Below, piece by piece: positions 1-26,302 of a stretch of 28,070 nt of DNA. The translations under genes were made by a program, and so were the position numbers. The first letter of the stretch is position 1; every line of letters starts with the position of its first letter. The notes beneath the pieces were generated by a model. It saw nothing but the letters and a program-made list of their open reading frames with translations, did not search any database and had not been told where the DNA came from. The DNA comes from a virus (taxonomy: Duplodnaviria > Heunggongvirae > Uroviricota > Caudoviricetes): positions 1 to 28,070 of the IMG/VR virus record IMGVR_UViG_2695420596_000005; one strand, written 5' to 3'.

Positions 1-609
1 ACCCTGACGGCGCTGGCAGAGCTTGCTACATCAGCAGATAAACTCCCATATTTTACAGGGGCAGATCGTGCCGCGTTAACCGCGTTGACAAGTGTTGGAC
101 GTGCCATTCTTGGTAAAACCAGCACTCAGGGAGTTCTTGATTACCTTGGTTTGGGGGAAGGCTCTGCACTGCCCGTTGGTGTACCTGTTCCGTGGCCCTC
201 AGCCACACCGCCAGCAGGGTGGCTGAAATGTAACGGTGCAGCATTTTCTTCTGAAATGTACCCAAAACTGGCAAAGGCCTACCCCACCAATAAATTACCG
301 GATTTACGCGGTGAATTTATCCGTGGCTGGGATGATGGGCGCGGGGTGGATGCCGGAAGGGGCATCTTAAGCATGCAGGGGTGGTTAACAGGAAGTCATT
401 ATCATAATATTCGGTCATGGGATGCGTGGGATAACACGGTGTTGGTGCCAAATGACAAAGGAGGGGATAGTCTGTTGTCGACAGATAACGCCGTCCGGCA
501 AGGTGCAATTAACGGTAGATTTACCAGTCAATACAGAACGGAATCCTCAGAGGGGAATGAAACCCACCCACGCAATATTGCCTTCAATTATATTGTGAGA
601 ACCGCATAA
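1..609 (+). CDS. Tail fibre protein, 3' portion (5' end off-window): constant region joined to variable C-terminal cassette Sv1
   Basis: Frame 1 is open from nt 1. Translation TLTALAELATSADKLPYFTG...GEGSALPVGVPVPW matches the internal sequence of the full-length fibre at 12506-14119. Ends ...NYIVRTA; stop overlaps the ATG of the next gene (ATAATG at 607-611). Confidence 0.8.
   Translation, partial: TLTALAELATSADKLPYFTGADRAALTALTSVGRAILGKTSTQGVLDYLGLGEGSALPVGVPVPWPSATPPAGWLKCNGAAFSSEMYPKLAKAYPTNKLPDLRGEFIRGWDDGRGVDAGRGILSMQGWLTGSHYHNIRSWDAWDNTVLVPNDKGGDSLLSTDNAVRQGAINGRFTSQYRTESSEGNETHPRNIAFNYIVRTA
134..159. other. hix/gix-like 26-bp recombination site A (TTCTTGATTACC-TT-GGTTTGGGGGAA)
   Basis: Two 12-bp half-sites around a 2-bp core, 10/12 match of the left half to the remembered hixL half-site TTCTTGAAAACC. 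Sequence identity with the inverted cassettes at 1695-1720 and 2134-2159 begins exactly here. Confidence 0.6.
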
Positions 610-1220
610 TGAATAACGCGATATTAAATGATGACCTTATTGCCGTACAGGCAGGAAACATCGTCGTTTATAACTATGATGGTGAGACACGGGAATATAT
701 TTCCGAATCAACTGAATATCTTGCTGTGGGTGTCGGTATTCCGGCAAATTCCTGTTTAGATGCCCCGGGCGCACATAAAGCGGGCTATGCTATCCGCCGT
801 TCGGAGAATTTAAGCTCATGGGAGTATGCGCCAGACCATCGTGGTGAAACCGTCTATAGCACTGACACGGGAAACACCGAAGAAATCACGGCGCTGGGTG
901 ACTACCCGAAAAATACAACCACTATCGCCCCGTTAACACCATACGATAAATGGGATGGTGAAAAATGGGTGACAGATACTGAGGCACAACATCGTGCTGC
1001 AGTAGAAGCGGCAGAAACCAAGCGCCAGTCACTGGCTGATGCGGCAATGGCTTCCATAAGTCTGATTCAGTTGAAGTTGCAGGCCGGGCGGAAGTTGACG
1101 CAGGCAGAAACCACCCGGCTTAATGCCGTGCTGGATTATATAGACGCGCTGAACGCAATGGATATAAACATGGCACCAGATATCAACTTGCCGGAAATAC
1201 CACTGGCAGCAGCCAGTTGA
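609..1220 (+). CDS. Tail fibre assembly protein (P2 gpG / Mu U-like)
   Basis: 203-aa ORF immediately after the fibre gene with overlapping stop/start. Family assignment is by position and remembered similarity of the C-terminal region to tail-fibre assembly chaperones. Confidence 0.8.
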   Translation: MNNAILNDDLIAVQAGNIVVYNYDGETREYISESTEYLAVGVGIPANSCLDAPGAHKAGYAIRRSENLSSWEYAPDHRGETVYSTDTGNTEEITALGDYPKNTTTIAPLTPYDKWDGEKWVTDTEAQHRAAVEAAETKRQSLADAAMASISLIQLKLQAGRKLTQAETTRLNAVLDYIDALNAMDINMAPDINLPEIPLAAAS

Positions 1221-1226
1221 ATATAA

Positions 1227-1703
1227 CTAAGCCGCCCTCACGATATAGTTAAATGCAATATTGCGGGGGCGGGTTTCACTACCACCTGTGTTACCAATAC
1301 TTCCTCGTGAATGAAGCGTTGGTGATGGAATCAAACTCCCTCCTGTATTTGTGGCATCAAGCCCCCTGCCTTGCGTATATGTTTTTTTGAAAATTGTGGC
1401 CAACTCCCATTCATCCTTTGTGTCATATCCATCGTTAGCTACAACAATATGGCGGTGTTTTTCCAACATCCCGTTTTGAATGCTCAATAAAGCGCGTGCC
1501 GCATCAATTCCTCGCCCATCATCCCAGCCACGGATAAATTCACCGCGTAAGTCTGGTAATTTATTGGTGGGGTAAGCCCTTGCCAGTTTTGGGTACTTTT
1601 CAGAAGAAAATGCTGCGCCGTTACATTTCAGCCATCCCGTTGGCGGCGTGGCTGAGGGCCATGGAACGGGCACACCAACGGGCAGTGCAGAGCCTTCCCC
1701 CAA
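1227..1703 (-). CDS. Promoterless alternative tail-fibre C-terminal cassette Sv2 (inverted orientation)
   Basis: No ATG; the frame opens at the recombination site and starts GEGSALPVGVPVPWPSATPP. Its 158 aa are identical to the C-terminus of the fibre at 12506-14119. Confidence 0.65.
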   Translation of the reverse strand: MGEGSALPVGVPVPWPSATPPTGWLKCNGAAFSSEKYPKLARAYPTNKLPDLRGEFIRGWDDGRGIDAARALLSIQNGMLEKHRHIVVANDGYDTKDEWELATIFKKTYTQGRGLDATNTGGSLIPSPTLHSRGSIGNTGGSETRPRNIAFNYIVRAA

Positions 1704-1720
1704 ACCAACGTTTTCATGCT
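1695..1720. other. hix/gix-like recombination site B, inverted relative to site A
   Basis: Reverse complement reads AGCATGAAAACG-TT-GGTTTGGGGGAA; the cassette-proximal half-site is identical to site A. Confidence 0.55.
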
Positions 1721-2199
1721 GCCCTTACGATGTAATTAAACGTAATATTACGAGGACGAATGGTTACATAATTAACCCCATCACCTCGTGAAGGCCCTGC
1801 AAATGAAAAACGGGAAAAGCCTGGTTGGTTAGAAACAATTTGGTCATAGTTATTGATTGAATGACCAGACCCAATGTCGAAATTACCTCCGTAATGAGAA
1901 AAACTTGTACCATCCTGCCCTGAAAGCAGGGTACGTCCCGCATCAATCCCGCGCCCATCATCCCAGCCACGGATAAATTCACCGCGTAAATCCGGTAATT
2001 TATTGGTGGGATAAGCCCTTGCCAGTCTGGGATACATTTCAGAAGAAAATGCTGCACCGTTACATTTCAGCCAGCCCGTTGGTGGTGTTGCTGAGGACCA
2101 CGGAACGGGCACACCAACGGGCAGTGCAGAGCCTTCCCCCAAACCAACGTTTTCGTTTTTATCCCTACCTATACCAACTCTGTATTTTTCACGAAACAA
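1714..2199 (-). CDS. Promoterless alternative tail-fibre C-terminal cassette Sv3 (inverted orientation)
   Basis: Shares the GLGEGSALPVGVPVPW...KLPDLRGEFIRGWDDGRGIDAGR constant stretch and the C-terminal NYIVRAA with the other cassettes, with a divergent middle. No ATG start at the site. Confidence 0.6.
   Translation of the reverse strand: MFREKYRVGIGRDKNENVGLGEGSALPVGVPVPWSSATPPTGWLKCNGAAFSSEMYPRLARAYPTNKLPDLRGEFIRGWDDGRGIDAGRTLLSGQDGTSFSHYGGNFDIGSGHSINNYDQIVSNQPGFSRFSFAGPSRGDGVNYVTIRPRNITFNYIVRAA
2134..2159. other. hix/gix-like recombination site C, inverted relative to site A and direct relative to B
   Basis: Reverse complement reads AAAACGAAAACG-TT-GGTTTGGGGGAA. Confidence 0.55.
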
Positions 2200-2213
2200 A
2201 GAGGATGTTTTTT

Positions 2214-2813
2214 ATGCAAATTGGCTATATTCGTGTGTCAACAAATGACCAGAACACGGATTTACAACGCAATGCACTGAACTGCGCAGGATGTGAACTG
2301 ATTTTTGAAGATAAAATCAGCGGAACGAAATCAGCCAGACCGGGATTGAAAAAACTGCTCAGAACGCTATCAGAAGGAGATACGCTGGTTGTCTGGAAGC
2401 TGGACAGACTGGGCAGAAGTATGAAACACCTGATCACGCTTATTGAGGAATTGCGGGAAAAAGGTGTTAATTTCCGTAGTCTGACGGACAGCATTGACAC
2501 ATCAACACCCATGGGGCGTTTCTTTTTTCACGTCATGGGGGCTTTAGCCGAAATGGAACGTGAATTAATTGTAGAGCGTACACTGGCCGGGCTGGCAGCA
2601 GCACGCGCACAAGGACGCATTGGCGGACGTCGCCCGAAGTTGACAAAAGAACAACACGAGCAAATAGCGAGGCTGATTAAAAACGGTCATGACAGGAAAC
2701 AACTGGCGATCATTTACGACATCGGCATATCGACGATTTATCGTTATCACCCTGTAGGCGATATACAGGCTGAAGAAACAACCAGGCAGACTCAGGAAAA
2801 TAAAAACCGCTAA
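2214..2813 (+). CDS. Serine DNA invertase (Gin/Hin/Pin/Cin family)
   Basis: MQIGYIRVSTNDQNTDLQRNAL... is the conserved resolvase/invertase N-terminus with the catalytic Ser in the RVST motif; C-terminal HTH. GAGG Shine-Dalgarno upstream of ATG 2214. Adjacent to three inverted 26-bp sites. Confidence 0.9.
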   Translation: MQIGYIRVSTNDQNTDLQRNALNCAGCELIFEDKISGTKSARPGLKKLLRTLSEGDTLVVWKLDRLGRSMKHLITLIEELREKGVNFRSLTDSIDTSTPMGRFFFHVMGALAEMERELIVERTLAGLAAARAQGRIGGRRPKLTKEQHEQIARLIKNGHDRKQLAIIYDIGISTIYRYHPVGDIQAEETTRQTQENKNR

Positions 2814-8582: not shown

Positions 8583-9683
8583 ATGACCGATACCACCATG
8601 CAATTGCTCAGTCAGGGCACAGACCCCGTGAAAATGCCGGATTTTGATATTCTCGCGGAGGGTAAAACGCTGTCAGGCGTGGCAGAGCGCCTGATGAGCC
8701 TGTCACTGACCGACAACCGGGGATTTGAGGCGGACCAGCTCACCATCACGCTGGATGATGCGGATGGTCAGTTGCAGCTACCGCCACGGGGCGCGCGCCT
8801 GACGGTTCTCATTGGCTGGAAAGGAGAACCGCTGACAGAAAAAGGCACTTACATTGTTGATGAAATCGCTCACGAAGGACCGCCGGACAGGCTGACTGTT
8901 TCAGCCAGAAGCGCAGATTTTCGGGATGAATTTAACGTTAAACGTGAGGTGTCCTGGCATGATGTGACCGTTGAGCGCGTGGTATCTGCCATCGCTCATC
9001 GGTACGGTCTGAAACCGCAAATCAGCGAAATACTGATGGATATCGAAATCGACCACGCCGACCAGACCGAAGAAAGCGACATGTCCTTCCTTACGCGCAT
9101 GGCGGAAATGCTGGGCGCAATCACCACGGTAAAAAGCGGTAATCTGTTATTCATCATGCCAGGCGGTCGCGTGAACGCACTGGGCCAGCCGTTGCCATCG
9201 TTCGCCATCACACGCAGCAGCGGCGATCGCCATCAGTTCCGCATTGCTGACCGCGAGGCGTATACGGGTGTACGCGCCTACTGGCTTGATCTTAATTACG
9301 GGAAAAAGAAAAAAGTCAGCGTGAAACGCCGCAAACCGAAAAAAGAGAAAAGCAGCAGCCGTGAAGGTGACTATATGGAAGGTGCGGAAGGCAACGTGTT
9401 TGTGTTACGCAAAACTTATCAGAACGAGCAGGCAGCAAGACGCGCAGCGGCGGCAAAATGGCAGCAGCTACAACGCGGAGCCGCATCATTTTCCATCACG
9501 CTGGCACGTGGACGAGCAGAACTCTACCCCGAAATGCATGGCACGGTAACAGGATTTAAAAGCGAGATTGATAATCAGGACTGGATCATTGCAAAAGCCG
9601 AGCACACCATTGATAACAGTGGCTTTACCACGCAGCTTGAGCTTGAAGCCAAAATCCCGGAATGGATAGCAGAAACAGAGTAA
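8583..9683 (+). CDS. D: Late tail gene D product, P2 gpD-like
   Basis: Start at MTDTTMQLLSQG (ATG 8583) preceded by GGGAGGG Shine-Dalgarno; ~366 aa; lies between FI and the ogr-like gene. Confidence 0.75.
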   Translation: MTDTTMQLLSQGTDPVKMPDFDILAEGKTLSGVAERLMSLSLTDNRGFEADQLTITLDDADGQLQLPPRGARLTVLIGWKGEPLTEKGTYIVDEIAHEGPPDRLTVSARSADFRDEFNVKREVSWHDVTVERVVSAIAHRYGLKPQISEILMDIEIDHADQTEESDMSFLTRMAEMLGAITTVKSGNLLFIMPGGRVNALGQPLPSFAITRSSGDRHQFRIADREAYTGVRAYWLDLNYGKKKKVSVKRRKPKKEKSSSREGDYMEGAEGNVFVLRKTYQNEQAARRAAAAKWQQLQRGAASFSITLARGRAELYPEMHGTVTGFKSEIDNQDWIIAKAEHTIDNSGFTTQLELEAKIPEWIAETE

Positions 9684-9877
9684 ACAACTTAGATGCATTA
9701 GCCCTGACATTTGCTAACGCGCTTACAGCAAGAATCATAACCAATCTGACAGCCTACCCGGTGTCAAAATCAGAAGAGCCTTACATTAGAATATGTTAAT
9801 TTGTAGCAAACAAATTTACACACAAATGATTACTGCTGAAATAGCCCCCATAAATGCCATGTCAAAGGATCCATGTT

Positions 9878-10543
9878 ATGAATATGCAAATTTTTATCGC
9901 ACCAGCAGCCACAGTTGCTGCAGTCTGCCTTGCTGCATATTTTGCTTTACGAAATGAACGTAAAAAGAAAGCACTTGAGATTAGAACAACTCAACTAGAT
10001 CGAATATCTGAGCTAGTAAACCGAGCATCTACCAATTTGATGCAATATACAGGTACTCTTGCCTCTATACTGGAAGCGCACGCCAAAGATAATTATCTAC
10101 CGAACAAAAAATTTGACATTAATGTAATTAGCAAATGGAAAGATTGCCTCGATGAGAGTGAGGTCTGGGCGATTGATATACAGCAACTAAGAACATGTCA
10201 GCACAGTCTGGAGTTTCATCGTGAAAAAGAATGGGCTGAATGGAAAAAAATAATTCCACCATTACTTGATAAAATTAACCAATTTTTTCTCATATCTAAG
10301 CCAGGGCAACCTGTTACGTTTATAAATGGCCAAAACAAAACAGCTGATGAACTACTTGTTTTCTCAAGATATTTGAGAAAACAAACAGCAGAAATTGAAT
10401 CAGTACGTCAGCTGTTACTTTCTCAAATGAGAGAGGAATTCATCGAGTTAACTAGCTTTGAACCTGTCACAATGTTTAGCTTATTTAAATCAATAAAGAA
10501 AAATGTCATGCAATTTTTCTGTATCAGTGCTCTTAAAAATTGA
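9878..10543 (+). CDS. Hypothetical membrane-anchored protein (AT-rich accessory gene)
   Basis: Start MNMQIFIAPAATVAAVCLAAYFAL gives one N-terminal hydrophobic helix followed by a charged ~200-aa domain. The region looks markedly AT-rich by eye. P2 has no gene between D and ogr. Confidence 0.6.
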   Translation: MNMQIFIAPAATVAAVCLAAYFALRNERKKKALEIRTTQLDRISELVNRASTNLMQYTGTLASILEAHAKDNYLPNKKFDINVISKWKDCLDESEVWAIDIQQLRTCQHSLEFHREKEWAEWKKIIPPLLDKINQFFLISKPGQPVTFINGQNKTADELLVFSRYLRKQTAEIESVRQLLLSQMREEFIELTSFEPVTMFSLFKSIKKNVMQFFCISALKN

Positions 10544-10558
10544 CGCTCTGTTGCAAGC

Positions 10559-10581
10559 AACCCCAGTGTTAAACTGGGGTT
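10559..10581 (+). terminator. Hairpin terminator candidate after the accessory gene
   Basis: AACCCCAGT-gttaa-ACTGGGGTT followed by ATTCTTGC. Confidence 0.45.
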
Positions 10582-10692
10582 ATTCTTGCTAAGAGACCTT
10601 TCTACGGCATCAGTAAACAAAACGAACTATCAGTTGGAGTCTGAGCAAGTTCAGCCTAAACTAGCGACAGCACTACGTTAAGGGAGGTCGCT

Positions 10693-10953
10693 ATGTTCCG
10701 TTGTCCGCTTTGTGGCGCATCTGCCCGTATCCGCACCAGTCGTCCGGAAAATGATTCAAACACCGTGCGGCAAAAGTATTACCAGTGTAACAACCTGGAA
10801 TGCGGCGTATGCTTCTCAACACTGGAAGCTTTCCATAAATTCACATCGAAACACGCCTCCGGCATCCACTCTTCAGAAGGTATCCCGTGGCATGAGCTGC
10901 CAGCTTCACACAGGGGAAACAATCAGATGAGCTTGCCTTTACCTCAGAATTAA
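10693..10953 (+). CDS. ogr: Zinc-finger late transcription activator, Ogr/Delta family
   Basis: MFRCPLCGASARIRTSRPENDSNTVRQKYYQCNNLECGVCFSTLEAF: CxxC...CxxxxC arrangement and similarity to P2 Ogr. Strong AAGGGAGG Shine-Dalgarno. Confidence 0.85.
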   Translation: MFRCPLCGASARIRTSRPENDSNTVRQKYYQCNNLECGVCFSTLEAFHKFTSKHASGIHSSEGIPWHELPASHRGNNQMSLPLPQN

Positions 10954-11092
10954 CAGGCAGAATTGCCGGAGTAACAAAAACGCGATAGATTACGCGCGGG
11001 TGCCTTTCGGCTGATGGTCGGAGGGAATACCCGAAGGCCAGATGTGGAAAGGCCCCGGAAAACATCTCTGTTTAACCGAGGCCCTAACCGCA

Positions 11093-12181
11093 TTACCTTG
11101 ACAAGTGAAAGGTTAGCGCCTCTCCGGAAAAGGAGCAAGTGCTTGTATGGGTCCACCACATATTGCAATTTTTATTCTCTTTTAAAATATATTCCACGGG
11201 CGTCATTAGTGCGAGCGCCTTGTGGGGTCTTTTGCTGTTATACAGCACCAGATATTCCGCCAGCTTCTGGTTAAATAGCGCCAGATCTTCAAAGAGTAAA
11301 ATCTCATTAAATTCAATAAACTGCTCTCTTAACGTCCGGTTAAAACGTTCACAGATAGCGTTCATTTTTGGCGTGTAGGGATAGGTCCAGAGGTGTTTGA
11401 TAGCGGCTTCCTGCAGCGTTTTGTCGAAGTTTCCCAGGAACTCTTTTCCGTTATCTGTGATTATCTGGCTGATACCGACCGGGAACAACCGGGCTGCGCG
11501 GCTGAAGAAGTGATTGACGATATCACTGTTGAGTGACGGCACAGCCAGCGCCAGCGCGTAATTGCTGCATTCGTCGATCATGGTGATGACATAGCGACGC
11601 AGTTCGCCCATTCTGAGCTCAATGGCGTCCATCCCAATGAGCTCACCTGTCTTTACCGGGCGGTAGTGCTTTGGCCTGCGGGGTTTGGCAGACCGCTTTT
11701 TGACAAGCAGTGCCTTCCCCCGCGATCCCAGACGCACAGGTATCATCCGCATTTTATCATGTGCGGCAGCGATCATTCTGCCGATGGTGGAAACACTCGG
11801 ACAGGCCAGATAGCGCTGTTCGCACCAGGGCTTCAGGCGAACAAAAATCTGCTCTTTACCGAGGTTCGGCAGCTCTGTCCTGAGGCGTCGAATCTCTTTC
11901 AGCACATCGGGATGCCAGTGTTTTTTTCGTCGCACCAGAGGTGCCTTACTGTGCGGGATTAGCCCCTCAGGTCCTTCCTTGTTCAGTAACTGACGCCACC
12001 AGTAAAGCGTGCGGCAGGACACGCCAAAGGCTTCAGAAGCTGCAGAAATACCGTGTTTATCCCAGAAGTGCAGAGCCTTCATTCTCATTGTTGCTATATC
12101 AGCCATCACTGAAAGCCTCAACGCATAATCGGCCGTTTGGTAGTACTTAGGATAGCCAACCATCAGATGCTGCATTTGCAT
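11093..12181 (-). CDS. DDE transposase (rve/integrase-core), IS481-family-like
   Basis: 362-aa ORF with N-terminal HTH region, ITDNGKEF and YxPxxN...E motifs typical of retroviral-integrase-type transposases. The last few codons probably read through into flanking DNA. Confidence 0.75.
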   Translation of the reverse strand: MQMQHLMVGYPKYYQTADYALRLSVMADIATMRMKALHFWDKHGISAASEAFGVSCRTLYWWRQLLNKEGPEGLIPHSKAPLVRRKKHWHPDVLKEIRRLRTELPNLGKEQIFVRLKPWCEQRYLACPSVSTIGRMIAAAHDKMRMIPVRLGSRGKALLVKKRSAKPRRPKHYRPVKTGELIGMDAIELRMGELRRYVITMIDECSNYALALAVPSLNSDIVNHFFSRAARLFPVGISQIITDNGKEFLGNFDKTLQEAAIKHLWTYPYTPKMNAICERFNRTLREQFIEFNEILLFEDLALFNQKLAEYLVLYNSKRPHKALALMTPVEYILKENKNCNMWWTHTSTCSFSGEALTFHLSR

Positions 12182-12216
12182 AGTGCAATCTCCCCTTACT
12201 TATCCGGAGGCAATTA
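11110..12216 (-). mobile_element. Insertion sequence, IS481-family-like (~1.1 kb)
   Basis: Single DDE transposase ORF. The right boundary is set where identity to the tfa copy at 940-1220 begins (12217/12218). The left boundary is approximate, set from an imperfect terminal inverted repeat (GTTAGCGCCTCTCCGGAAAAGG versus TAATTGCCTCCGGATAAGTAAGG). Confidence 0.6.
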
Positions 12217-12217
12217 A

Positions 12218-12499
12218 CCATACGATAAATGGGATGGTGAAAAATGGGTGACAGATACTGAGGCACAACATCGTGCTGCAGTAGAAGCGGCAGAAACCAA
12301 GCGCCAGTCACTGGCTGATGCGGCAATGGCTTCCATAAGTCTGATTCAGTTGAAGTTGCAGGCCGGGCGGAAGTTGACGCAGGCAGAAACCACCCGGCTT
12401 AATGCCGTGCTGGATTATATAGACGCGCTGAACGCAATGGATATAAACATGGCACCAGATATCAACTTGCCGGAAATACCACTGGCAGCAGCCAGTTGA
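12218..12499 (+). pseudogene. Truncated tail-fibre assembly gene (3' remnant only)
   Basis: Identical to the 3' part of the tfa at 609-1220 from nt ~940 onward; identity starts abruptly at the IS end, leaving the last ~83 codons without the native start. Confidence 0.75.
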
Positions 12500-12505
12500 A
12501 TATAA

Positions 12506-14119
12506 CTAAGCCGCCCTCACGATATAGTTAAATGCAATATTGCGGGGGCGGGTTTCACTACCACCTGTGTTACCAATACTTCCTCGTGAATGAAGCGTTG
12601 GTGATGGAATCAAACTCCCTCCTGTATTTGTGGCATCAAGCCCCCTGCCTTGCGTATATGTTTTTTTGAAAATTGTGGCCAACTCCCATTCATCCTTTGT
12701 GTCATATCCATCGTTAGCTACAACAATATGGCGGTGTTTTTCCAACATCCCGTTTTGAATGCTCAATAAAGCGCGTGCCGCATCAATTCCTCGCCCATCA
12801 TCCCAGCCACGGATAAATTCACCGCGTAAGTCTGGTAATTTATTGGTGGGGTAAGCCCTTGCCAGTTTTGGGTACTTTTCAGAAGAAAATGCTGCGCCGT
12901 TACATTTCAGCCATCCCGTTGGCGGCGTGGCTGAGGGCCATGGAACGGGCACACCAACGGGCAGTGCAGAGCCTTCCCCCAAACCAAGGTAATCAAGAAC
13001 TCCCTGAGTGCTGGTTTTACCAAGAATGGCACGTCCAACACTTGTCAACGCGGTTAACGCGGCACGATCTGCCCCTGTAAAATATGGGAGTTTATCTGCT
13101 GATGTAGCAAGCTCTGCCAGCGCCGTCAGGGTGGCATCCTTCGGTTGCTTACCCGCAAGCGCGTTAGTCATGGTGGTCGCAAAATTCGGGTCATTGCCCA
13201 GCGCCGCAGCCAGTTCGTTCAGCGTGTTCAGTGCATCAGGTGACGAATCTACAAGTGCGGCAATCGCGGCCATAACGAAAGCCGTGCTTGCGATCTGGGT
13301 ACTATTAGTCCCCTGTGGCGCTGTTGGTGTTGTTGGCGTTCCGGTCAGTGCCGGGCTGTTTAATGGTGCTTTCTTGTTCGTTTCATCCATTACCGCCTTA
13401 ACAGCTTTTGGTGTCGCTGCCAGCGTTTCAGACGTGCTGTTCGTGGCGCTACTGAGCTGAACAATTCCTTTTTGTGTAGTGGTGGCGTTCTGGGCGGTAT
13501 ATTTCCCGTTAGCCAGGTCATATGCAGCCTTAACCGCTTTCGGTGTTGCGGCCAGTGTTTCTGATTCACTGTTAATTGCACTGCTTAACTGAGTAAAACC
13601 TTTTACGGTCAGCGAGGCGTCCGGGTGACGTCGTGACTGTTCGTGCTCTGAGATTTTATCATCCACATATTTGCGGGTTGCCAGAACCACAGACGGGTCG
13701 ATTTTCAGCGTGATGGCTTCGGTGTTCGTGACAACCAGAATCATGCGGATAGTCTGGGTGCGTCCACTGCCTTCCTGCAACTGCGGTTTGTACGTTTCCG
13801 GGCAGTTTGCCACCGCAATGAGTACACCTTCATCATCATAAAGACCAATCTCACGGATCCAGAATCCTCCCTCGTTTTCAGGGATGATTTGCTCCGCAAT
13901 AATCTGGCTCTGATTGTTAGGGTCAACACTCAGAAGATTCAGCGGTGCAATGCGTTTCTGGTTAATCAGTTTTGTTTGTGCAGGGTCTGGTGTTGGTAAC
14001 ACACCATTTGCATCACCAACGGCCATTTGCGTCAGATTCAGCTTACTGCCGAGCATCGTCGCGTTAGCCAGTCGTGCCGCGCCCTGATTAGTCAGAATGG
14101 CGTAGTATTTCACTGTCAT
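12506..14119 (-). CDS. H: Tail fibre protein, P2 gpH-like N-terminus with the Sv2 C-terminal domain
   Basis: 537 aa. N-terminal two-thirds similar to remembered P2 H (AVANCPETYKP, EHEQSRRHPDASLTVKGFTQLSS, TPKAVKAVMDETNKKAPLNSPALTGTPT). C-terminal 158 aa identical to cassette 1227-1703. Confidence 0.9.
   Translation of the reverse strand: MTVKYYAILTNQGAARLANATMLGSKLNLTQMAVGDANGVLPTPDPAQTKLINQKRIAPLNLLSVDPNNQSQIIAEQIIPENEGGFWIREIGLYDDEGVLIAVANCPETYKPQLQEGSGRTQTIRMILVVTNTEAITLKIDPSVVLATRKYVDDKISEHEQSRRHPDASLTVKGFTQLSSAINSESETLAATPKAVKAAYDLANGKYTAQNATTTQKGIVQLSSATNSTSETLAATPKAVKAVMDETNKKAPLNSPALTGTPTTPTAPQGTNSTQIASTAFVMAAIAALVDSSPDALNTLNELAAALGNDPNFATTMTNALAGKQPKDATLTALAELATSADKLPYFTGADRAALTALTSVGRAILGKTSTQGVLDYLGLGEGSALPVGVPVPWPSATPPTGWLKCNGAAFSSEKYPKLARAYPTNKLPDLRGEFIRGWDDGRGIDAARALLSIQNGMLEKHRHIVVANDGYDTKDEWELATIFKKTYTQGRGLDATNTGGSLIPSPTLHSRGSIGNTGGSETRPRNIAFNYIVRAA
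12974..12999. other. hix/gix-like recombination site within the H gene (reverse complement identical to site A)
   Basis: TTCCCCCAAACC-AA-GGTAATCAAGAA is the exact reverse complement of 134-159. Confidence 0.55.
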
Positions 14120-23018: not shown

Positions 23019-25223
23019 TTACGTGTCGAGAGAAATTTGTGTGCGCAGTTGAATAGGATTCAGAATTGTATATCGCTGGCGAATAACATTATATAAATCA
23101 AAGTCTTTTACCCTTACGCTTATTACCATCGCATATTGCATATCAGGGGCTGAAACTCCCTTAACATGGCGCGAAGAATCTCGGGCATGATACCGTATAT
23201 CAAAAACTGGATCGCTTAATAATGTATCAGCACTGAACTTTTTGCTTCTGTGCAAACAAGTTTCCCACTTATGACCTTCACTCCTACACTCCCTTTCAGT
23301 CTTATACTGGCTTTTTTGACCAAAGAAATCATCTGTATCGGTATCGTCAAGGCCGAATCTTGGGCGGAAAGTTACCTGCATACCGGCCCTTGTATAGTTT
23401 ACTGAATGTTCAGGATCTACTGGGGTTTGAATGCATAAAGTAGCGGTAAGCTCAAATGCTTCGTCAAAGGGAACATCAGGGAATGGGATCGGTGCCCTTA
23501 AATATTTATTTTTTGCTAATGAACCATAGTAAATTACTGTAGCAGTATCATTTGGACAATCGATTAAAACGTTAGGATCCTCACTAAACCGTCCCCAACC
23601 GATATGTTCACGCGAATATTTTCTTGATGTTTCAGCATGATGAACAAGCAACGCTTTCAATGCAATGGTGTTCAATGGAGTTCCTGATAGAGCCGCAACT
23701 CCAGCGGCCGTTCTCAATGCTAATGGAGAGGCATAACTGGTTCCTTGAACTCCAACTATAGAACCAAGCAGAGGGTTGTAAGTGTAAAAAGGCTCGTCGT
23801 CGCTTCCACCAAAAATAACACCATCAGGTTTAACGAATCCGGGGCTTCTGCCTGGCCCAATACAGCTATATGGTGCCCGCCCCCATTTTTCACCGCTACG
23901 ATCAGCAGCACCAATCGCTAGCGCGTTTACCATATCGGAAGGAGGTTGTATTCTCGCTGCATCACCGTCCTCATTGCCATCATTCCCAACAGCAACAGTA
24001 AGTAATATCCCATGCTTAGCACAGATTTGGTCTAAAACAGCAGTCCATACATGAACCTCATCATCACCAATTGGAAGATGAGGACCAATACTTAGATTAG
24101 CGAACTTATAGTCACCACTATCAAGAACGGACTGTATTTTCTTAAGGACATCAAATAAATCCCAATTGCCATTGTCACCTGATGTCGGTGAAAGAACTCT
24201 ATAATGATCTACATTCATAAACGGTCTTTTAAAAGAAGGTGCATTTTCCTCGACACGTCCGAATAAGAAAGTGGATGTCACTTCATTACCGTGCTGCAAT
24301 AATAATCCGCTTGTTTCTTTGGTGTCTGGATACACGTATTCCGTAACCCAATTACTCAAGTCAGCTGTCCCCAAGCCACCATCAAAAATGGCAATACGTT
24401 CGGATTCAAGAACAGCTTTAGAATTAGGGAGCTCCGGTGTAACTATATTAGATAACTTTCTGACAATGTTCGGCTGAGTACACCTGAGAGACGGCATCGG
24501 CCGCACAACGCGGATTAATGAAAAATCGAGTGTTTTTTTCATATCTTCAGGTCGCGCGTGTGCAACGATGAAAGTCAGCCCACCAACTTGGATTCTACTT
24601 TTGTAATCAACAGAGACATCATATTGTGCCGCATAGCTAATATAGGCTTTAACGATATCATCGTCTTCAACCCCAGCATGAAGAACCACTTCAAATTTTA
24701 TCAAATCACTTTTCGCATGCTCAAAATTGCGTGCTCTCTCTTTTCCTTCAAAAAAGCTAACACTTTCAATTTCGATCAAATCCTTTTGTACGCCCTTCGG
24801 AGCTGTAGGGGAATTTAAAATTTCCTTAAATCTTATAACGGCATCATCATCACCGCTAACAAACAGTTGCGCCGTTACTAAGTCCTTATTCTGATCGCAC
24901 TGACGTGCCGCTTTCCGTGGGCGAATGATTACCTGACGGCTGCCGACATCCCGTAAACCTGTCGCTCTAAGCAATCCTTCCGGAAAGTAGCTTTTACCCA
25001 AAAACGCTGGGTGTAAAGTTAAATTGAATACACTCTCCCCCCTTGGCTTAGCCGCATCATCCAAACTGCGAAAGCGTGAGAGTAAAGTATCAATCTCTGG
25101 GTTTAAATGCTCCCTTACTTCTTCAAGAGTATAGGGATAGCGCTTACCATCCCTTCCTTTAGGCAAAGGTTCCTTTTTTGTCAGAACATGACCGTTACCT
25201 AAAAGTAAGTTCCTTTCCATCAT
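23019..25223 (-). CDS. S8 subtilisin-family serine protease with extra N- and C-terminal domains (IetS-like)
   Basis: 734 aa. Catalytic-triad motifs in subtilase order: Asp (RIAIFDGGLG), His (LLQHGNEVTS), Ser (GTSYASPLA), plus VAVGNDG. About 270 aa N-terminal and 250 aa C-terminal have no motif I recognise. ATG overlaps the upstream ATPase stop (ATGA). Confidence 0.8.
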   Translation of the reverse strand: MMERNLLLGNGHVLTKKEPLPKGRDGKRYPYTLEEVREHLNPEIDTLLSRFRSLDDAAKPRGESVFNLTLHPAFLGKSYFPEGLLRATGLRDVGSRQVIIRPRKAARQCDQNKDLVTAQLFVSGDDDAVIRFKEILNSPTAPKGVQKDLIEIESVSFFEGKERARNFEHAKSDLIKFEVVLHAGVEDDDIVKAYISYAAQYDVSVDYKSRIQVGGLTFIVAHARPEDMKKTLDFSLIRVVRPMPSLRCTQPNIVRKLSNIVTPELPNSKAVLESERIAIFDGGLGTADLSNWVTEYVYPDTKETSGLLLQHGNEVTSTFLFGRVEENAPSFKRPFMNVDHYRVLSPTSGDNGNWDLFDVLKKIQSVLDSGDYKFANLSIGPHLPIGDDEVHVWTAVLDQICAKHGILLTVAVGNDGNEDGDAARIQPPSDMVNALAIGAADRSGEKWGRAPYSCIGPGRSPGFVKPDGVIFGGSDDEPFYTYNPLLGSIVGVQGTSYASPLALRTAAGVAALSGTPLNTIALKALLVHHAETSRKYSREHIGWGRFSEDPNVLIDCPNDTATVIYYGSLAKNKYLRAPIPFPDVPFDEAFELTATLCIQTPVDPEHSVNYTRAGMQVTFRPRFGLDDTDTDDFFGQKSQYKTERECRSEGHKWETCLHRSKKFSADTLLSDPVFDIRYHARDSSRHVKGVSAPDMQYAMVISVRVKDFDLYNVIRQRYTILNPIQLRTQISLDT

Positions 25224-26302
25224 TTAATCCCCCACTTTTGTAATTTATTCGCGATTGTTGGATGTGAAACACCAACTAATTCAGCTATCTTCCTATTTGA
25301 AAAACCGTCAAAATGATATTTAATTATATTGAGATCATTATCGCTAAACTCATCCAATGAAACCCTCTCCGTAATTACGGCTTCTATTAATGAGCTTTCA
25401 AATGGAATATTTCTAAGTACCTCATTCTTTTTGGAGAAATTCAAAATACGGTTAATGATGGCAAAGGACATGCCATCTAATAATGGTGCAAGTTTTTTAG
25501 ATAGTTCAGGTTCAATATTATGATTGACTAAATATCTATCTATCAGTTCTACTGATGGCATATTAAATTTAAGGATGTGCTCAAATCGACGCCAAACAGC
25601 CGGATCTAAGATATCAGGGTGATTAGTCGCAGCAACAAGAAGCGAGGTCGCTGGCCACTCATCTATGGTCTGTAGGAGTACAGTAACTAAACGTTTTAAT
25701 TCTCCAACGTCCCTGTCATCATCACGTCTTTTTGCAACAGCATCAAATTCATCAAGCAAAAGGACACATGGTTTCTCTTTGGCATAATCCATAACGGATT
25801 TAATATTATTACCTGTTTTTCCCAAAAGAGAACTCATTACAGATGAGAGATCCAATGTTAAAAGAGGTAAATTTAACTTTGCAGCAAGCCAATGTGCGGA
25901 CATTGTTTTGCCTACGCCTGGCGGGCCAGAAAGTAAAACCGTCTTCACAGGTTCAAGACCAGCTTTGAACAAAGAAACCGCATTCTCTCTTTCGTTAACA
26001 ATTGACTCCAGCTTCTTTGAGATATCCGTATTCCATACAGGTTCTTCAACAATTGCGTTGACAGATGTTTCCTGCAAAAGGTTTCGTCTGGAGTCTCCAT
26101 CCACAGGCATAGGAGCCTTACTAGATGCCCCACGTAATACTGTTCCCTCAGCAACTAACGAAGCCAGCTTAGAAGCTAAAGCCTCATCATTTTTACGGAT
26201 GTTGTTAATCATCTTTCTGCATAGGAGTGTAAATGCATTTGCGTTGCCTTTGATGCCTTGCTCGATGAGTTTGAAAAGTTCATCCTCCCTCACGTTTACC
26301 AT
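25220..26302 (-). CDS. AAA+ ATPase with C-terminal helix-turn-helix (IetA-like)
   Basis: 360 aa. Walker A LLSGPPGVGKT, Walker B VLLLDEFDAV, sensor-1 LLVAATNHP. C-terminal NRKIAELVGVSHPTIANKLQKW resembles an HTH. GGGGG Shine-Dalgarno before ATG 26302. Confidence 0.8.
   Translation of the reverse strand: MVNVREDELFKLIEQGIKGNANAFTLLCRKMINNIRKNDEALASKLASLVAEGTVLRGASSKAPMPVDGDSRRNLLQETSVNAIVEEPVWNTDISKKLESIVNERENAVSLFKAGLEPVKTVLLSGPPGVGKTMSAHWLAAKLNLPLLTLDLSSVMSSLLGKTGNNIKSVMDYAKEKPCVLLLDEFDAVAKRRDDDRDVGELKRLVTVLLQTIDEWPATSLLVAATNHPDILDPAVWRRFEHILKFNMPSVELIDRYLVNHNIEPELSKKLAPLLDGMSFAIINRILNFSKKNEVLRNIPFESSLIEAVITERVSLDEFSDNDLNIIKYHFDGFSNRKIAELVGVSHPTIANKLQKWGIK

What the first reader, a model, noticed from the sequence alone, without database searches (positions are those of the whole stretch)
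9684..10692. AT-rich accessory gene encoding a membrane-anchored protein between gene D and ogr
P2 has no gene between D and ogr. Here a ~1-kb insert carries a gene with its own ribosome-binding site and a downstream hairpin (10559-10581). Its composition is visibly AT-rich compared with the flanking GC-richer tail genes. The product has a single N-terminal hydrophobic helix and a ~200-aa charged, Lys/Glu-rich domain, with no enzymatic motif I recognise. Prophage accessory genes of this shape are often superinfection-exclusion or abortive-infection factors.
Basis: partly seen in the sequence, partly recalled or inferred. Interest (0 to 1): 0.6.

Follow-up and report, generated by a model that had tools for sequence, protein, structure and literature searches.

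The report
Orphan membrane-anchored cargo gene in prophage hotspot
A roughly 1-kb AT-rich cassette sits between tail gene D and the late activator gene ogr of a P2-family prophage, at a site where related prophages carry known anti-phage systems, and it encodes a membrane-anchored protein of unknown family that is a good but untested candidate for a new phage-exclusion factor.

Summary
The D-ogr gap (9684-10692) is 1009 bp, against 42 bp in sister phages. It has the lowest GC in the window (37.5% against 51%). It holds one gene, 9878-10543 (+), 221 aa, with an RBS and a downstream hairpin. The prophage is P88-like (Xuanwuvirus), a relative of the E. coli E2348/69 prophage. The D/ogr junction is a cargo hotspot with conserved arms. 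In other E. coli it carries SIR2-HerA, a PIN protein, a HEPN-like protein, DUF3800, HxsABCD or nothing. The protein matches no Pfam, NCBIfam, PHROG, PADLOC or PDB entry. Its family is tiny: 23 clusters among 1.84 billion representatives. Members occur as a solitary gene in P2-like and lambdoid prophages, ICEs and plasmids, often beside conflict genes (DUF4238, bSEFIR, Abi_2, pifC/KAP NTPase). It is predicted to have an N-out/C-in membrane anchor and a cytoplasmic four-helix bundle. The anchor and juxtamembrane segment are the most conserved part, and H114 and W122 are invariant. dN/dS is 0.25. Accessory cargo status is well supported. An anti-phage role is inferred from context only. A classical periplasm-facing superinfection-exclusion mechanism is unlikely; a membrane-acting abortive or exclusion effector is my best guess.

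The parts
8583..9683 (+). Tail gene D (late control D / baseplate hub), the left conserved flank of the hotspot
   Evidence: Pfam Phage_GPD E=4e-17. Matches P88 gp51 and the RefSeq annotation.
9686..9693 (.). AACTTAGA, the left copy of the short direct repeat that brackets cargo. Empty sites keep a single AACTTAGAAT.
   Evidence: Junction comparison of 12 loci.
9694..9708 (+). Conserved left inner arm TGCATTAGCCCTGAC (consensus TGTATTAG..CAGAC). It is shared by unrelated cargos at this site and by the Kluyvera lambdoid copy.
9736..9877 (+). Leader that travels with the gene (about 78% identical to the copy in a Kluyvera lambdoid prophage). It contains an invariant GAATATGTTAATTTGT block and an 11-nt inverted repeat at 9794-9804/9810-9820. 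It is the presumed site of the cassette's own promoter or operator, but no strong sigma-70 match was found.
   Evidence: blastn, alignment, repeats, promoter scan negative.
9865..9870 (+). Ribosome-binding site AAAGGA, 7 nt before the ATG
   Evidence: Sequence. Conserved as AGAGGA in the Kluyvera copy.
9878..10543 (+). Cargo gene, 221 aa (WP_001057121.1, annotated 'hypothetical protein'). Predicted bitopic inner-membrane protein with a cytoplasmic four-helix bundle.
   Evidence: dN/dS 0.25 against the Kluyvera orthologue.
9890..9949 (+). Codons for the membrane anchor (residues 5-24, IFIAPAATVAAVCLAAYFAL). It is followed by RNERKKK, so the positive-inside rule predicts N-out/C-in. Anchor plus juxtamembrane segment (residues 8-40) is the most conserved part of the family.
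   Evidence: Hydropathy and flank charges. Per-region entropy 1.1 bits against 2.0 bits or more elsewhere.
10208..10243 (+). Codons for the conserved motif L111-x-F113-H114-R115 ... W122. H114 and W122 are invariant in 18 family members. The motif lies at the turn between bundle helices 101-114 and 116-136.
   Evidence: Alignments A2 and A3, secondary structure.
10546..10595 (+). Terminator-like hairpin (core stem-loop 10559-10581) just after the stop codon. It probably insulates ogr from cargo transcription. The U-tract is weak.
   Evidence: Conserved in phage 520873 but not in the Kluyvera copy.
10634..10662 (+). Right conserved arm, a sigma-70-like promoter for ogr: TTGGAG, 17 nt, TAAACT. 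Other occupied sites have TTGGAA-17-TAGAAT. The -10 element lies 30 nt before the ogr ATG, a position comparable to the annotated P2 ogr -10.
   Evidence: all occupied sites. P2 annotation and sequence.
10693..10953 (+). ogr (late-gene activator), the right conserved flank of the hotspot
   Evidence: Pfam Ogr_Delta E=5e-14, RefSeq annotation.

Best explanation
Shown:
- The insert is a self-contained mobile cargo cassette made of a leader, one gene and a hairpin.
- It occupies a recombination hotspot between tail gene D and the ogr promoter of a P88-like (P2-family) prophage.
- The gene belongs to a very small, unclassified family found in Enterobacterales mobile elements, and it is under purifying selection.

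Predicted:
- The product is a bitopic inner-membrane protein. About 7 residues are outside, there is one conserved transmembrane helix, and about 195 residues form a cytoplasmic up-down helical bundle.

Inferred (my commitment):
- It is a conflict gene that protects the lysogen, or the element that carries it, from other phages or elements, and it acts at the cytoplasmic face of the inner membrane.
- The most likely mechanism is a one-protein sensor-effector. The fast-evolving cytoplasmic bundle recognises an invader-derived cue. The conserved transmembrane/juxtamembrane module then self-associates, or engages a host membrane protein, to collapse membrane function or block a membrane-linked step. 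This would be abortive infection or exclusion.

Probabilities: about 0.45 that the function is anti-phage or anti-element at all, and about 0.3 that it works by this membrane-effector route.
For: Cargo status:
- The site is empty (42 bp) in P88, PhiR44_2 and GPEC548.
- The identical insert is in 58 of 5426 complete E. coli genomes, whereas about 1100 genomes carry this prophage region.
- GC 0.375 against 0.51.
- The same cassette, 78% identical from 142 nt upstream of the ATG to just past the stop, lies in the nin-type region of a Kluyvera lambdoid prophage.

Hotspot:
- Seven different cargos sit at the same junction with conserved arms.
- They include SIR2-HerA (PADLOC E=2.5e-155 and 2e-252), PIN_12, a HEPN-like protein and DUF3800.

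Real gene:
- dN/dS is 0.25.
- The family has 23 clusters, all about 215-235 aa, with invariant H114 and W122.

Structure and topology:
- AlphaFold2 pLDDT 80.9.
- One hydrophobic helix, flanked by a net charge of 0 on the N side and +4 on the C side.
- The anchor region is the most conserved part.

Neighbourhoods of homologues:
- DUF4238 and DUF4145. DUF4238 gives T7 resistance according to PMC9122126.
- bSEFIR.
- Abi_2.
- pifC plus a KAP NTPase.
- ICE cargo slots.
Against: - No sequence or fold link to any known defence, exclusion or toxin family. The fold matches are generic four-helix bundles and there is nothing in the viral structure library.
- Hotspots also carry non-defence cargo (PMC9122126).
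- Six of the seven plasmid contexts examined place the homologue next to replication or partition genes, and four of them also next to a small tyrosine recombinase. That fits a maintenance role equally well.
- Two homologues lie in ordinary chromosomal surroundings.
- No convincing promoter was found in the leader, so expression in the lysogen is unproven.
- Topology and structure are predictions only.
Confidence: 0.45

Rival explanations
1. Superinfection exclusion in the strict sense: the protein blocks genome entry of incoming phages at the inner membrane, for example by occupying or altering a host membrane protein used for DNA translocation, without killing the cell.
For: - It is a membrane-anchored prophage accessory protein.
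- The highly conserved transmembrane/juxtamembrane segment could be a binding surface for a conserved host membrane protein.
- It sits in a hotspot.
Against: - Only about 7 residues are predicted to face the periplasm, whereas characterised exclusion proteins act on that side (my own knowledge of T4 Imm/Sp, HK97 gp15 and lactococcal Sie).
- Homologues on plasmids and ICEs are not expected for a phage-specific entry block.
- No homology to any Sie protein.
Confidence: 0.15
2. A maintenance or housekeeping factor of mobile elements rather than a defence gene, for example a membrane tether or regulator linked to element replication, partition or multimer resolution, that happens to have been captured by a phage hotspot.
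For: - Plasmid homologues lie directly downstream of RepE, RepB or Rep3 on the same strand. In four plasmids they are convergent with a roughly 245-aa tyrosine recombinase.
- The Citrobacter copy follows parA and a parB-like gene.
- ICE copies lie near ParA, DnaB and TopoIII backbone genes.
Against: - P2-family and lambdoid prophages replicate and segregate differently, yet carry the same gene as an optional single-gene insert.
- Only about 5% of P88-like prophages have it.
- Several of those same plasmid regions also hold Abi_2 or pifC/KAP NTPase genes.
Confidence: 0.2
3. A lysogenic-conversion gene that changes host physiology or virulence (envelope, division, stress response) for the benefit of pathogenic E. 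coli hosts.
For: - It is found in EPEC E2348/69 and other pathogenic lineages.
- AT-rich morons often encode such factors (general knowledge).
- ZipA-like N-out/C-in topology is predicted.
Against: - Homologues occur in plant-associated Pantoea and Erwinia and in environmental samples.
- The other occupants of the site are conflict systems, not virulence genes.
Confidence: 0.1
4. A phage lytic-cycle accessory protein, co-transcribed with D late in infection, that helps lysis timing or virion assembly.
For: It is on the same strand as D and no terminator is predicted between them, so late transcripts should read into it.
Against: - It is absent from most close relatives, which are viable phages (P88, PhiR44_2).
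- It is frameshifted in phage 520873.
- Homologues occur on plasmids and ICEs.
- No match to structural or lysis families.
Confidence: 0.05
5. A decaying or non-functional ORF carried along with foreign DNA.
For: There is no annotation, no known domain and a narrow distribution.
Against: - dN/dS is 0.25 over 221 codons with dS 0.65.
- The length is conserved at 214-235 aa down to about 20% identity, with invariant residues.
- The fold is confidently predicted.
Confidence: 0.03

Closest known systems
Cargo of P2-family prophage hotspots (old/tin locus next to cos, the Z/fun locus; Rousset et al. 2022, PMC9122126; NAR 2026, PMC13586616; iLund4u preprint 10.1101/2024.10.15.618418)
   Same: - A variable, AT-rich, self-contained cassette lies between conserved phage core genes.
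- Alternative occupants include validated defence systems.
- The same window also carries IetAS at the cos-proximal hotspot.
   Different: - The site is a different one, the D/ogr junction of P88-like phages. [quoted passage not shown]
- The protein itself is not in PADLOC or any tested set.
Membrane-anchored single-gene abortive-infection or exclusion proteins of prophages and plasmids (for example lactococcal AbiP, lambda RexB, P22 SieB, T4 Imm; recalled from my own knowledge, not tested here)
   Same: - Small, AT-rich, solitary accessory gene.
- N-terminal membrane anchor.
- Carried by temperate phages and plasmids.
   Different: - No detectable sequence similarity.
- Different size and predicted fold.
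- No phenotype is known.
Four-helix-bundle sensor domains of chemoreceptors and histidine kinases (for example PDB 9kup, 4k0d, 2d4u)
   Different: - Only 6-13% identity and no Pfam 4HB_MCP match.
- De novo designed bundles score equally well, so the similarity is generic.
- The predicted orientation is opposite (cytoplasmic, not periplasmic).
- There is no second transmembrane helix and no signalling output domain.
Hok/Sok-type host-killing module just downstream of ogr in the same prophage family
   Same: A membrane-targeting accessory function of the same element, a few hundred bases away.
   Different: Hok is about 50 aa and has an antisense RNA partner. The cargo protein is 221 aa, unrelated, and no antisense RNA was detected.

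Membership tests
Phage-hotspot cargo (moron) of P2-family prophages | Lies between conserved core genes at a site that is empty or differently filled in close relatives | tested here: met
   42-bp empty sites and seven alternative cargos with conserved arms.
Phage-hotspot cargo (moron) of P2-family prophages | Foreign composition and its own regulatory signals | tested here: inconclusive
   GC 0.375 against 0.51. A conserved 142-nt leader and a hairpin are present. No clear sigma-70 promoter was found.
Anti-phage defence system (any PADLOC/DefenseFinder-type family) | Profile match to a known or candidate defence protein | tested here: not met
   No significant PADLOC hit for the protein or for any of 18 family members.
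Anti-phage defence system (any PADLOC/DefenseFinder-type family) | Reduces phage plating or propagation when expressed | not testable with these tools
   This needs wet-lab efficiency-of-plating and liquid-infection assays.
Anti-phage defence system (any PADLOC/DefenseFinder-type family) | Recurrent co-location with known defence genes | tested here: met
   SIR2-HerA at the same site. Neighbours of homologues are DUF4238/DUF4145, bSEFIR, Abi_2 and pifC/KAP NTPase. No enrichment statistic was computed.
Superinfection-exclusion proteins (T4 Imm/Sp, HK97 gp15, Sie2009 type) | Functional domain exposed where incoming DNA crosses the envelope (periplasmic or outer face) | tested here: not met
   The positive-inside rule predicts about 7 residues outside and about 195 inside. 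This is a prediction only.
Superinfection-exclusion proteins (T4 Imm/Sp, HK97 gp15, Sie2009 type) | Sequence or fold similarity to a characterised Sie protein | tested here: not met
   No PHROG, Pfam or viral-structure match.
HEPN nucleases (helical-bundle RNases common in Abi systems) | Conserved R-x(4-6)-H motif in a four-helix bundle | tested here: not met
   The only invariant His (H114) is followed, not preceded, by Arg. No conserved Arg lies 5-7 residues upstream. There are no HEPN Pfam hits.
4HB_MCP / sensor four-helix bundles | Profile match, and periplasmic location between two transmembrane helices | tested here: not met
   No Pfam match. There is a single transmembrane helix with predicted cytoplasmic orientation. 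The fold similarity is only generic.
Holins / phage lysis proteins | Small membrane protein in the lysis cassette, required for lysis | tested here: not met
   221 aa, located at the D/ogr junction, absent from viable relatives. No lysis-family match.

The most novel reading that the evidence does not exclude
The gene founds a previously unrecognised family of single-protein, membrane-tethered immunity factors. In this family a conserved N-out/C-in transmembrane/juxtamembrane effector is coupled to a rapidly diverging cytoplasmic four-helix-bundle sensor. The family is exchanged as a one-gene cassette among P2-like and lambdoid prophages, ICEs and plasmids of Enterobacterales. The D/ogr junction of P88-like prophages would then be an unmined defence hotspot with fixed recombination arms that could be used to harvest further systems.
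Probability: 0.3. Interest if true: 0.65.

Novelty: new variant of a known kind. Interest (0 to 1): 0.45.

Why it matters
If the protein blocks phages or other mobile elements, it would add a new, very compact membrane-acting immunity family with no recognisable enzymatic domain. It would also be an easy one-gene system in which to study how a cytoplasmic helical bundle can sense infection and signal through a single transmembrane helix.

Separately, the analysis defines the D/ogr junction of P88-like prophages as a cargo site with conserved arms (CTTAGA|TGTATTAG on the left, TTGGAA-17-TAGAAT on the right). About 1100 complete E. coli genomes carry this prophage region. The arms can be used as anchors to mine further candidate systems: the PIN_12, HEPN-like, DUF3800, Hxs and 465-aa cargos are also uncharacterised at this site.

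The site also raises a regulatory question. Cargo sits directly on the promoter of the late-gene master activator ogr, so it is unclear how the cargo is kept from disturbing that promoter.

Tried and rejected
Searches that found nothing:
- Pfam, NCBIfam, PHROGs and PADLOC on the protein and on 18 family members gave only noise.
- PDB sequence profiles gave nothing meaningful.
- Foldseek against viral structures had no hit with E <= 0.001.
- The AFDB library was unavailable.
- A literature search for the accession returned nothing.
- The scan of representative genomes found only one further locus, in Erwinia piriflorinigrans, in a chromosomal setting that was not informative.

Ideas considered and dropped:
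- HEPN nuclease: no R-x(4-6)-H motif.
- LemA-like protein: recalled from memory because of its TM-plus-bundle layout, but there is no Pfam hit.
- Sec signal peptide: there is no positive n-region, and a cluster of Lys/Arg follows the hydrophobic stretch directly.
- Functional link to the neighbouring pore-forming colicin in Kluyvera: cassette homology starts 160 nt after the colicin immunity gene, and the cassette occurs without a colicin elsewhere.
- Non-coding RNA in the insert: Rfam found only a below-threshold miRNA artefact.
- Transposon-like ends: there are no terminal inverted repeats, only short direct repeats at the hotspot.
- Sigma-70 promoter in the leader: no match at the scan threshold, and my manual candidates were weak.
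- Paralogy between the Pantoea upstream partner gene and this family: hhalign probability 0.2%.
Full report
**1. Observation.**
- The window holds a P2-family prophage. The stretch 9684-10692 is exactly the spacer between the stop codon of tail gene D (ORF ending at 9683; Pfam Phage_GPD E=4e-17) and the start codon of ogr (10693-10953; Ogr_Delta E=5e-14).
- The spacer is 1009 bp. In phages P88 and PhiR44_2 and in E. coli GPEC548 the same spacer is 42 bp, so 967 bp are extra, about 9694-10661.
- GC is 0.375 in the insert and 0.357 in the CDS (GC3 0.28). D is 0.533, ogr 0.498 and the window 0.511. No other 968-bp stretch of the window has lower GC. The only other comparably AT-rich region is 22.8-26.3 kb.
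- The gene is 9878-10543 (+), 221 aa. The mechanical ORF starts at 9854, but RefSeq (WP_001057121.1, 'hypothetical protein') and all homologues start at the ATG at 9878, which has AAAGGA 7 nt upstream.
- The hairpin at 10559-10581 is real. It has a 9-bp stem, extends to 10546-10595, has dG -26.7 kcal/mol and z = -3.9, but its T-tract is weak.
- There is one hydrophobic helix, residues 5-24.
- 'Lys/Glu-rich' overstates the composition: K is 8.6% and E is 7.7%.
- P2 itself does have no gene between D and ogr. It has only an 81-bp spacer containing the annotated ogr promoter.

**2. Whose genome, and what kind of site.**
- The insert is 100% identical to E. coli O127:H6 E2348/69. It occurs in 58 of 5426 complete E. 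coli genomes, always on the chromosome.
- The prophage is P88-like (genus Xuanwuvirus). In this group the FI-FII-E-T-U tail operon is divergent from D, and D-ogr-hok/sok lie on the other strand.
- A search with the empty P88 region found about 1100 genomes holding most of this region. Many of them have extra DNA at the D/ogr junction.
- Cargos I verified at that junction:

| Cargo | Strand | Evidence |
|---|---|---|
| SIR2 + HerA | - | PADLOC E=2.5e-155 and 2e-252 |
| PIN_12 protein | + | Pfam |
| 340-aa protein with a weak RiboL-PSP-HEPN match | - | Pfam |
| DUF3800 protein | - | Pfam |
| HxsABCD radical-SAM cluster | - | RefSeq annotation |
| 465-aa unknown protein | - | no Pfam family |
| The present gene | + | this report |

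- All occupied sites share the same arms. After the D stop codon comes CTTA(G/A)A followed by TGTATTAG..CAGAC. Just before ogr comes AGTTGGAAT, 17 nt, then (C)TTAGAAT-AGCG. Empty sites keep a single AACTTAGAAT, so cargo is bracketed by a short direct repeat.
- The right arm reads as a sigma-70 promoter, TTGGAA-17-TAGAAT. Its -10 element lies 30 nt before the ogr ATG, comparable in position to the annotated P2 ogr -10. In the window it is TTGGAG (10634-10639), 17 nt, TAAACT (10657-10662).
- Five of the seven cargo types point away from ogr. The present gene points towards it and ends in the hairpin. I read the hairpin as insulation of ogr, which is an inference.
- ogr was reported to be transcribed in all conditions in a Salmonella P2-like lysogen (PMC7067206).

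**3. The cassette is mobile on its own.**
- A 74%-identical protein (P0004) lies in a lambdoid prophage of Kluyvera, between the replication genes and Q, next to a pore-forming colicin and its immunity gene.
- Nucleotide similarity to the window (78%) runs from 9736 to 10550. By alignment it runs from the TGTATTAGC arm at 9694. This covers 142 nt or more of leader plus the ORF, but not the hairpin.
- The leader contains an invariant GAATATGTTAATTTGT block and an 11-nt inverted repeat at 9794-9820. No sigma-70 match reached the scan threshold, so the promoter remains unidentified.
- An 86%-identical allele (P0003) occupies the same D/ogr site in a prophage integrated elsewhere, next to serS.
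- The copy in phage 520873 is disrupted.

**4. The protein family.**
- There is no significant match in Pfam, NCBIfam, PHROGs, PADLOC or PDB sequences, for the protein or for 18 family members.
- An exhaustive HMMER scan of 1.84 billion representatives found 23 clusters. Full-length members are 214-235 aa and go down to about 20% identity.
- H114 and W122 are invariant. P9, A20, L24, K30, K31 and F113 are nearly so.
- dN/dS between the window and Kluyvera genes is 0.25, with dS 0.65, so this is a selected protein-coding gene.
- With a 15-sequence alignment, AlphaFold2 gives pLDDT 80.9 and pTM 0.67. The model has one long helix (4-71, comprising the anchor and bundle helix 1), further helices at 81-93, 101-114, 116-136 and 156-192, and a less confident C-terminal helix at 199-220.
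- The N-terminal flank carries no net charge, whereas RNERKKKALEIR follows the hydrophobic stretch (6 Lys/Arg, net +4). By the positive-inside rule the bundle is therefore cytoplasmic and only about 7 residues are outside (a prediction).
- The anchor and juxtamembrane segment (residues 8-40) are the most conserved part of the family: mean column entropy is 1.1 bits, against 2.0-2.4 bits elsewhere. A passive anchor would not be expected to behave this way.
- In an up-down bundle the H114/R115 turn would lie at the membrane-proximal end. This is inferred from helix order; I had no access to the coordinates.

**5. Where relatives live.**
- ICEs of the ParA-DnaB-TraR-TopoIII-AcaB type, in a variable slot. 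One has a bSEFIR protein nearby and another a DUF4145 protein.
- An island with DUF4238 and DUF4145. A DUF4238 protein was shown to protect against T7 (PMC9122126).
- Eight PLSDB plasmids of Pantoea, Erwinia, Winslowiella and Klebsiella, plus a Citrobacter plasmid and a small Rep3 contig.
  - The gene lies downstream of RepE, RepB or Rep3. In four plasmids it is convergent with a small tyrosine recombinase.
  - In one Pantoea plasmid it sits beside an Abi_2 gene. In one Klebsiella plasmid it sits beside pifC and a KAP NTPase.
  - The two Pantoea plasmid copies whose context I examined (P. ananatis and P. agglomerans) have a conserved, unrelated upstream partner of about 200 aa.
- Two homologues are in ordinary chromosomal neighbourhoods.
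- The gene is otherwise always solitary, with no conserved partner.

**6. Interpretation.**
- Shown: this is an optional, horizontally exchanged, selected single-gene cassette sitting in a phage cargo hotspot whose other occupants include a validated defence system and nuclease-type proteins.
- Predicted: it encodes a bitopic inner-membrane protein with a cytoplasmic helical bundle and a functionally important anchor.
- Inferred: it has a conflict function. I put about 0.45 on an anti-phage or anti-element role.
  - Within that, I favour a sensor-effector that acts through its conserved transmembrane/juxtamembrane module, giving membrane-level abortive infection or exclusion (about 0.3).
  - I put strict entry-blocking superinfection exclusion at about 0.15, because almost nothing of the protein faces the periplasm.
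- The main rival is a maintenance-type role for mobile elements (about 0.2), suggested by the adjacency to Rep, Par and recombinase genes on plasmids.
- Host-physiology conversion (0.1), a lytic-cycle helper (0.05) and a dead ORF (0.03) are less likely, for the reasons given under the rival explanations.

**7. Comparison with the known, and novelty.**
- The kind of thing, a defence-type moron in a P2-family hotspot, is well known (PMC9122126; PMC13586616).
- The protein family is not in any library I could search, and no paper cites its accession.
- I therefore rate it as a new variant of a known kind. Interest is moderate (0.45). It is cheap to test and possibly a new compact immunity family, but its function currently rests on guilt by association.

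Noticed in passing
window 23019-26302 (- strand): An S8-peptidase gene (23019-25223) and an AAA-ATPase gene (25220-26302) match the known IetS/IetA defence system (PADLOC E=6.6e-41 and 3.6e-89). They lie in the second AT-rich region of the window, which is the cos-proximal P2 hotspot.
   Followed up: partly
window 11147-12216, and 12217 onward: An insertion sequence with an rve/HTH_32 (IS481-like) transposase (ORF 11093-12181, - strand) sits right after ogr. Beyond it the window continues with the tail-fibre end of the same prophage in inverted orientation relative to E. coli E2348/69. This indicates an IS-associated inversion or rearrangement of the prophage.
   Followed up: partly
window 10998-11149 (+): A sok antitoxin RNA match (Rfam RF01794, 48.9 bits, below the gathering score of 59, E=2e-9) lies downstream of ogr. 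The hok/gef gene that follows it in E2348/69 and P88 is cut off by the IS at about 11147.
   Followed up: partly
window 9686-9708 and 10634-10662; loci L004, L018-L023: All occupied D/ogr sites share conserved arms: CTTAGA|TGTATTAG on the left and TTGGAA-17-TAGAAT on the right. The right arm looks like the ogr promoter. Empty sites keep one AACTTAGAAT and a poor -35 element, which suggests that 'empty' may be a deletion product between short direct repeats.
   Followed up: partly
window 9789-9805 and 9880-9896: The invariant leader block GAATATGTTAATTTGTA is repeated at 82% identity across the start codon (GAATATGCAAATTTTTA). This could be a regulatory site or it could be chance.
   Followed up: no
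L026 4310-4942 and L039 3325-3921 (Pantoea plasmids): In Pantoea plasmids the homologue is preceded by a conserved unknown protein of about 200 aa (61% identical between the two plasmids). The two genes overlap or are tightly spaced on the same strand, so this is a possible two-gene version of the system. That protein is unrelated to the family.
   Followed up: partly
L014 6077-7652 (Kluyvera lambdoid prophage): A 408-aa protein with a pore-forming colicin domain, plus a 100-aa gene on the opposite strand (immunity-like), is carried in the nin-type region of a lambdoid prophage, next to the cassette.
   Followed up: no
window 1-2813 and 12217-13000: There are multiple mutually inverted, about 92%-identical tail-fibre segments next to a DNA invertase gene. 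This is a Cin/Gin-type invertible host-range segment, as in P88.
   Followed up: no
L021 7602-10999; L023 7639-9036; L019 7533-8702; L020 7615-8685: Other cargos at the same hotspot have no PADLOC match and look like untested candidates: a PIN_12 protein, a DUF3800 protein and a 465-aa protein with no family. The HxsABCD radical-SAM cluster is also there; it has only a weak pVip-like hit for HxsB.
   Followed up: partly
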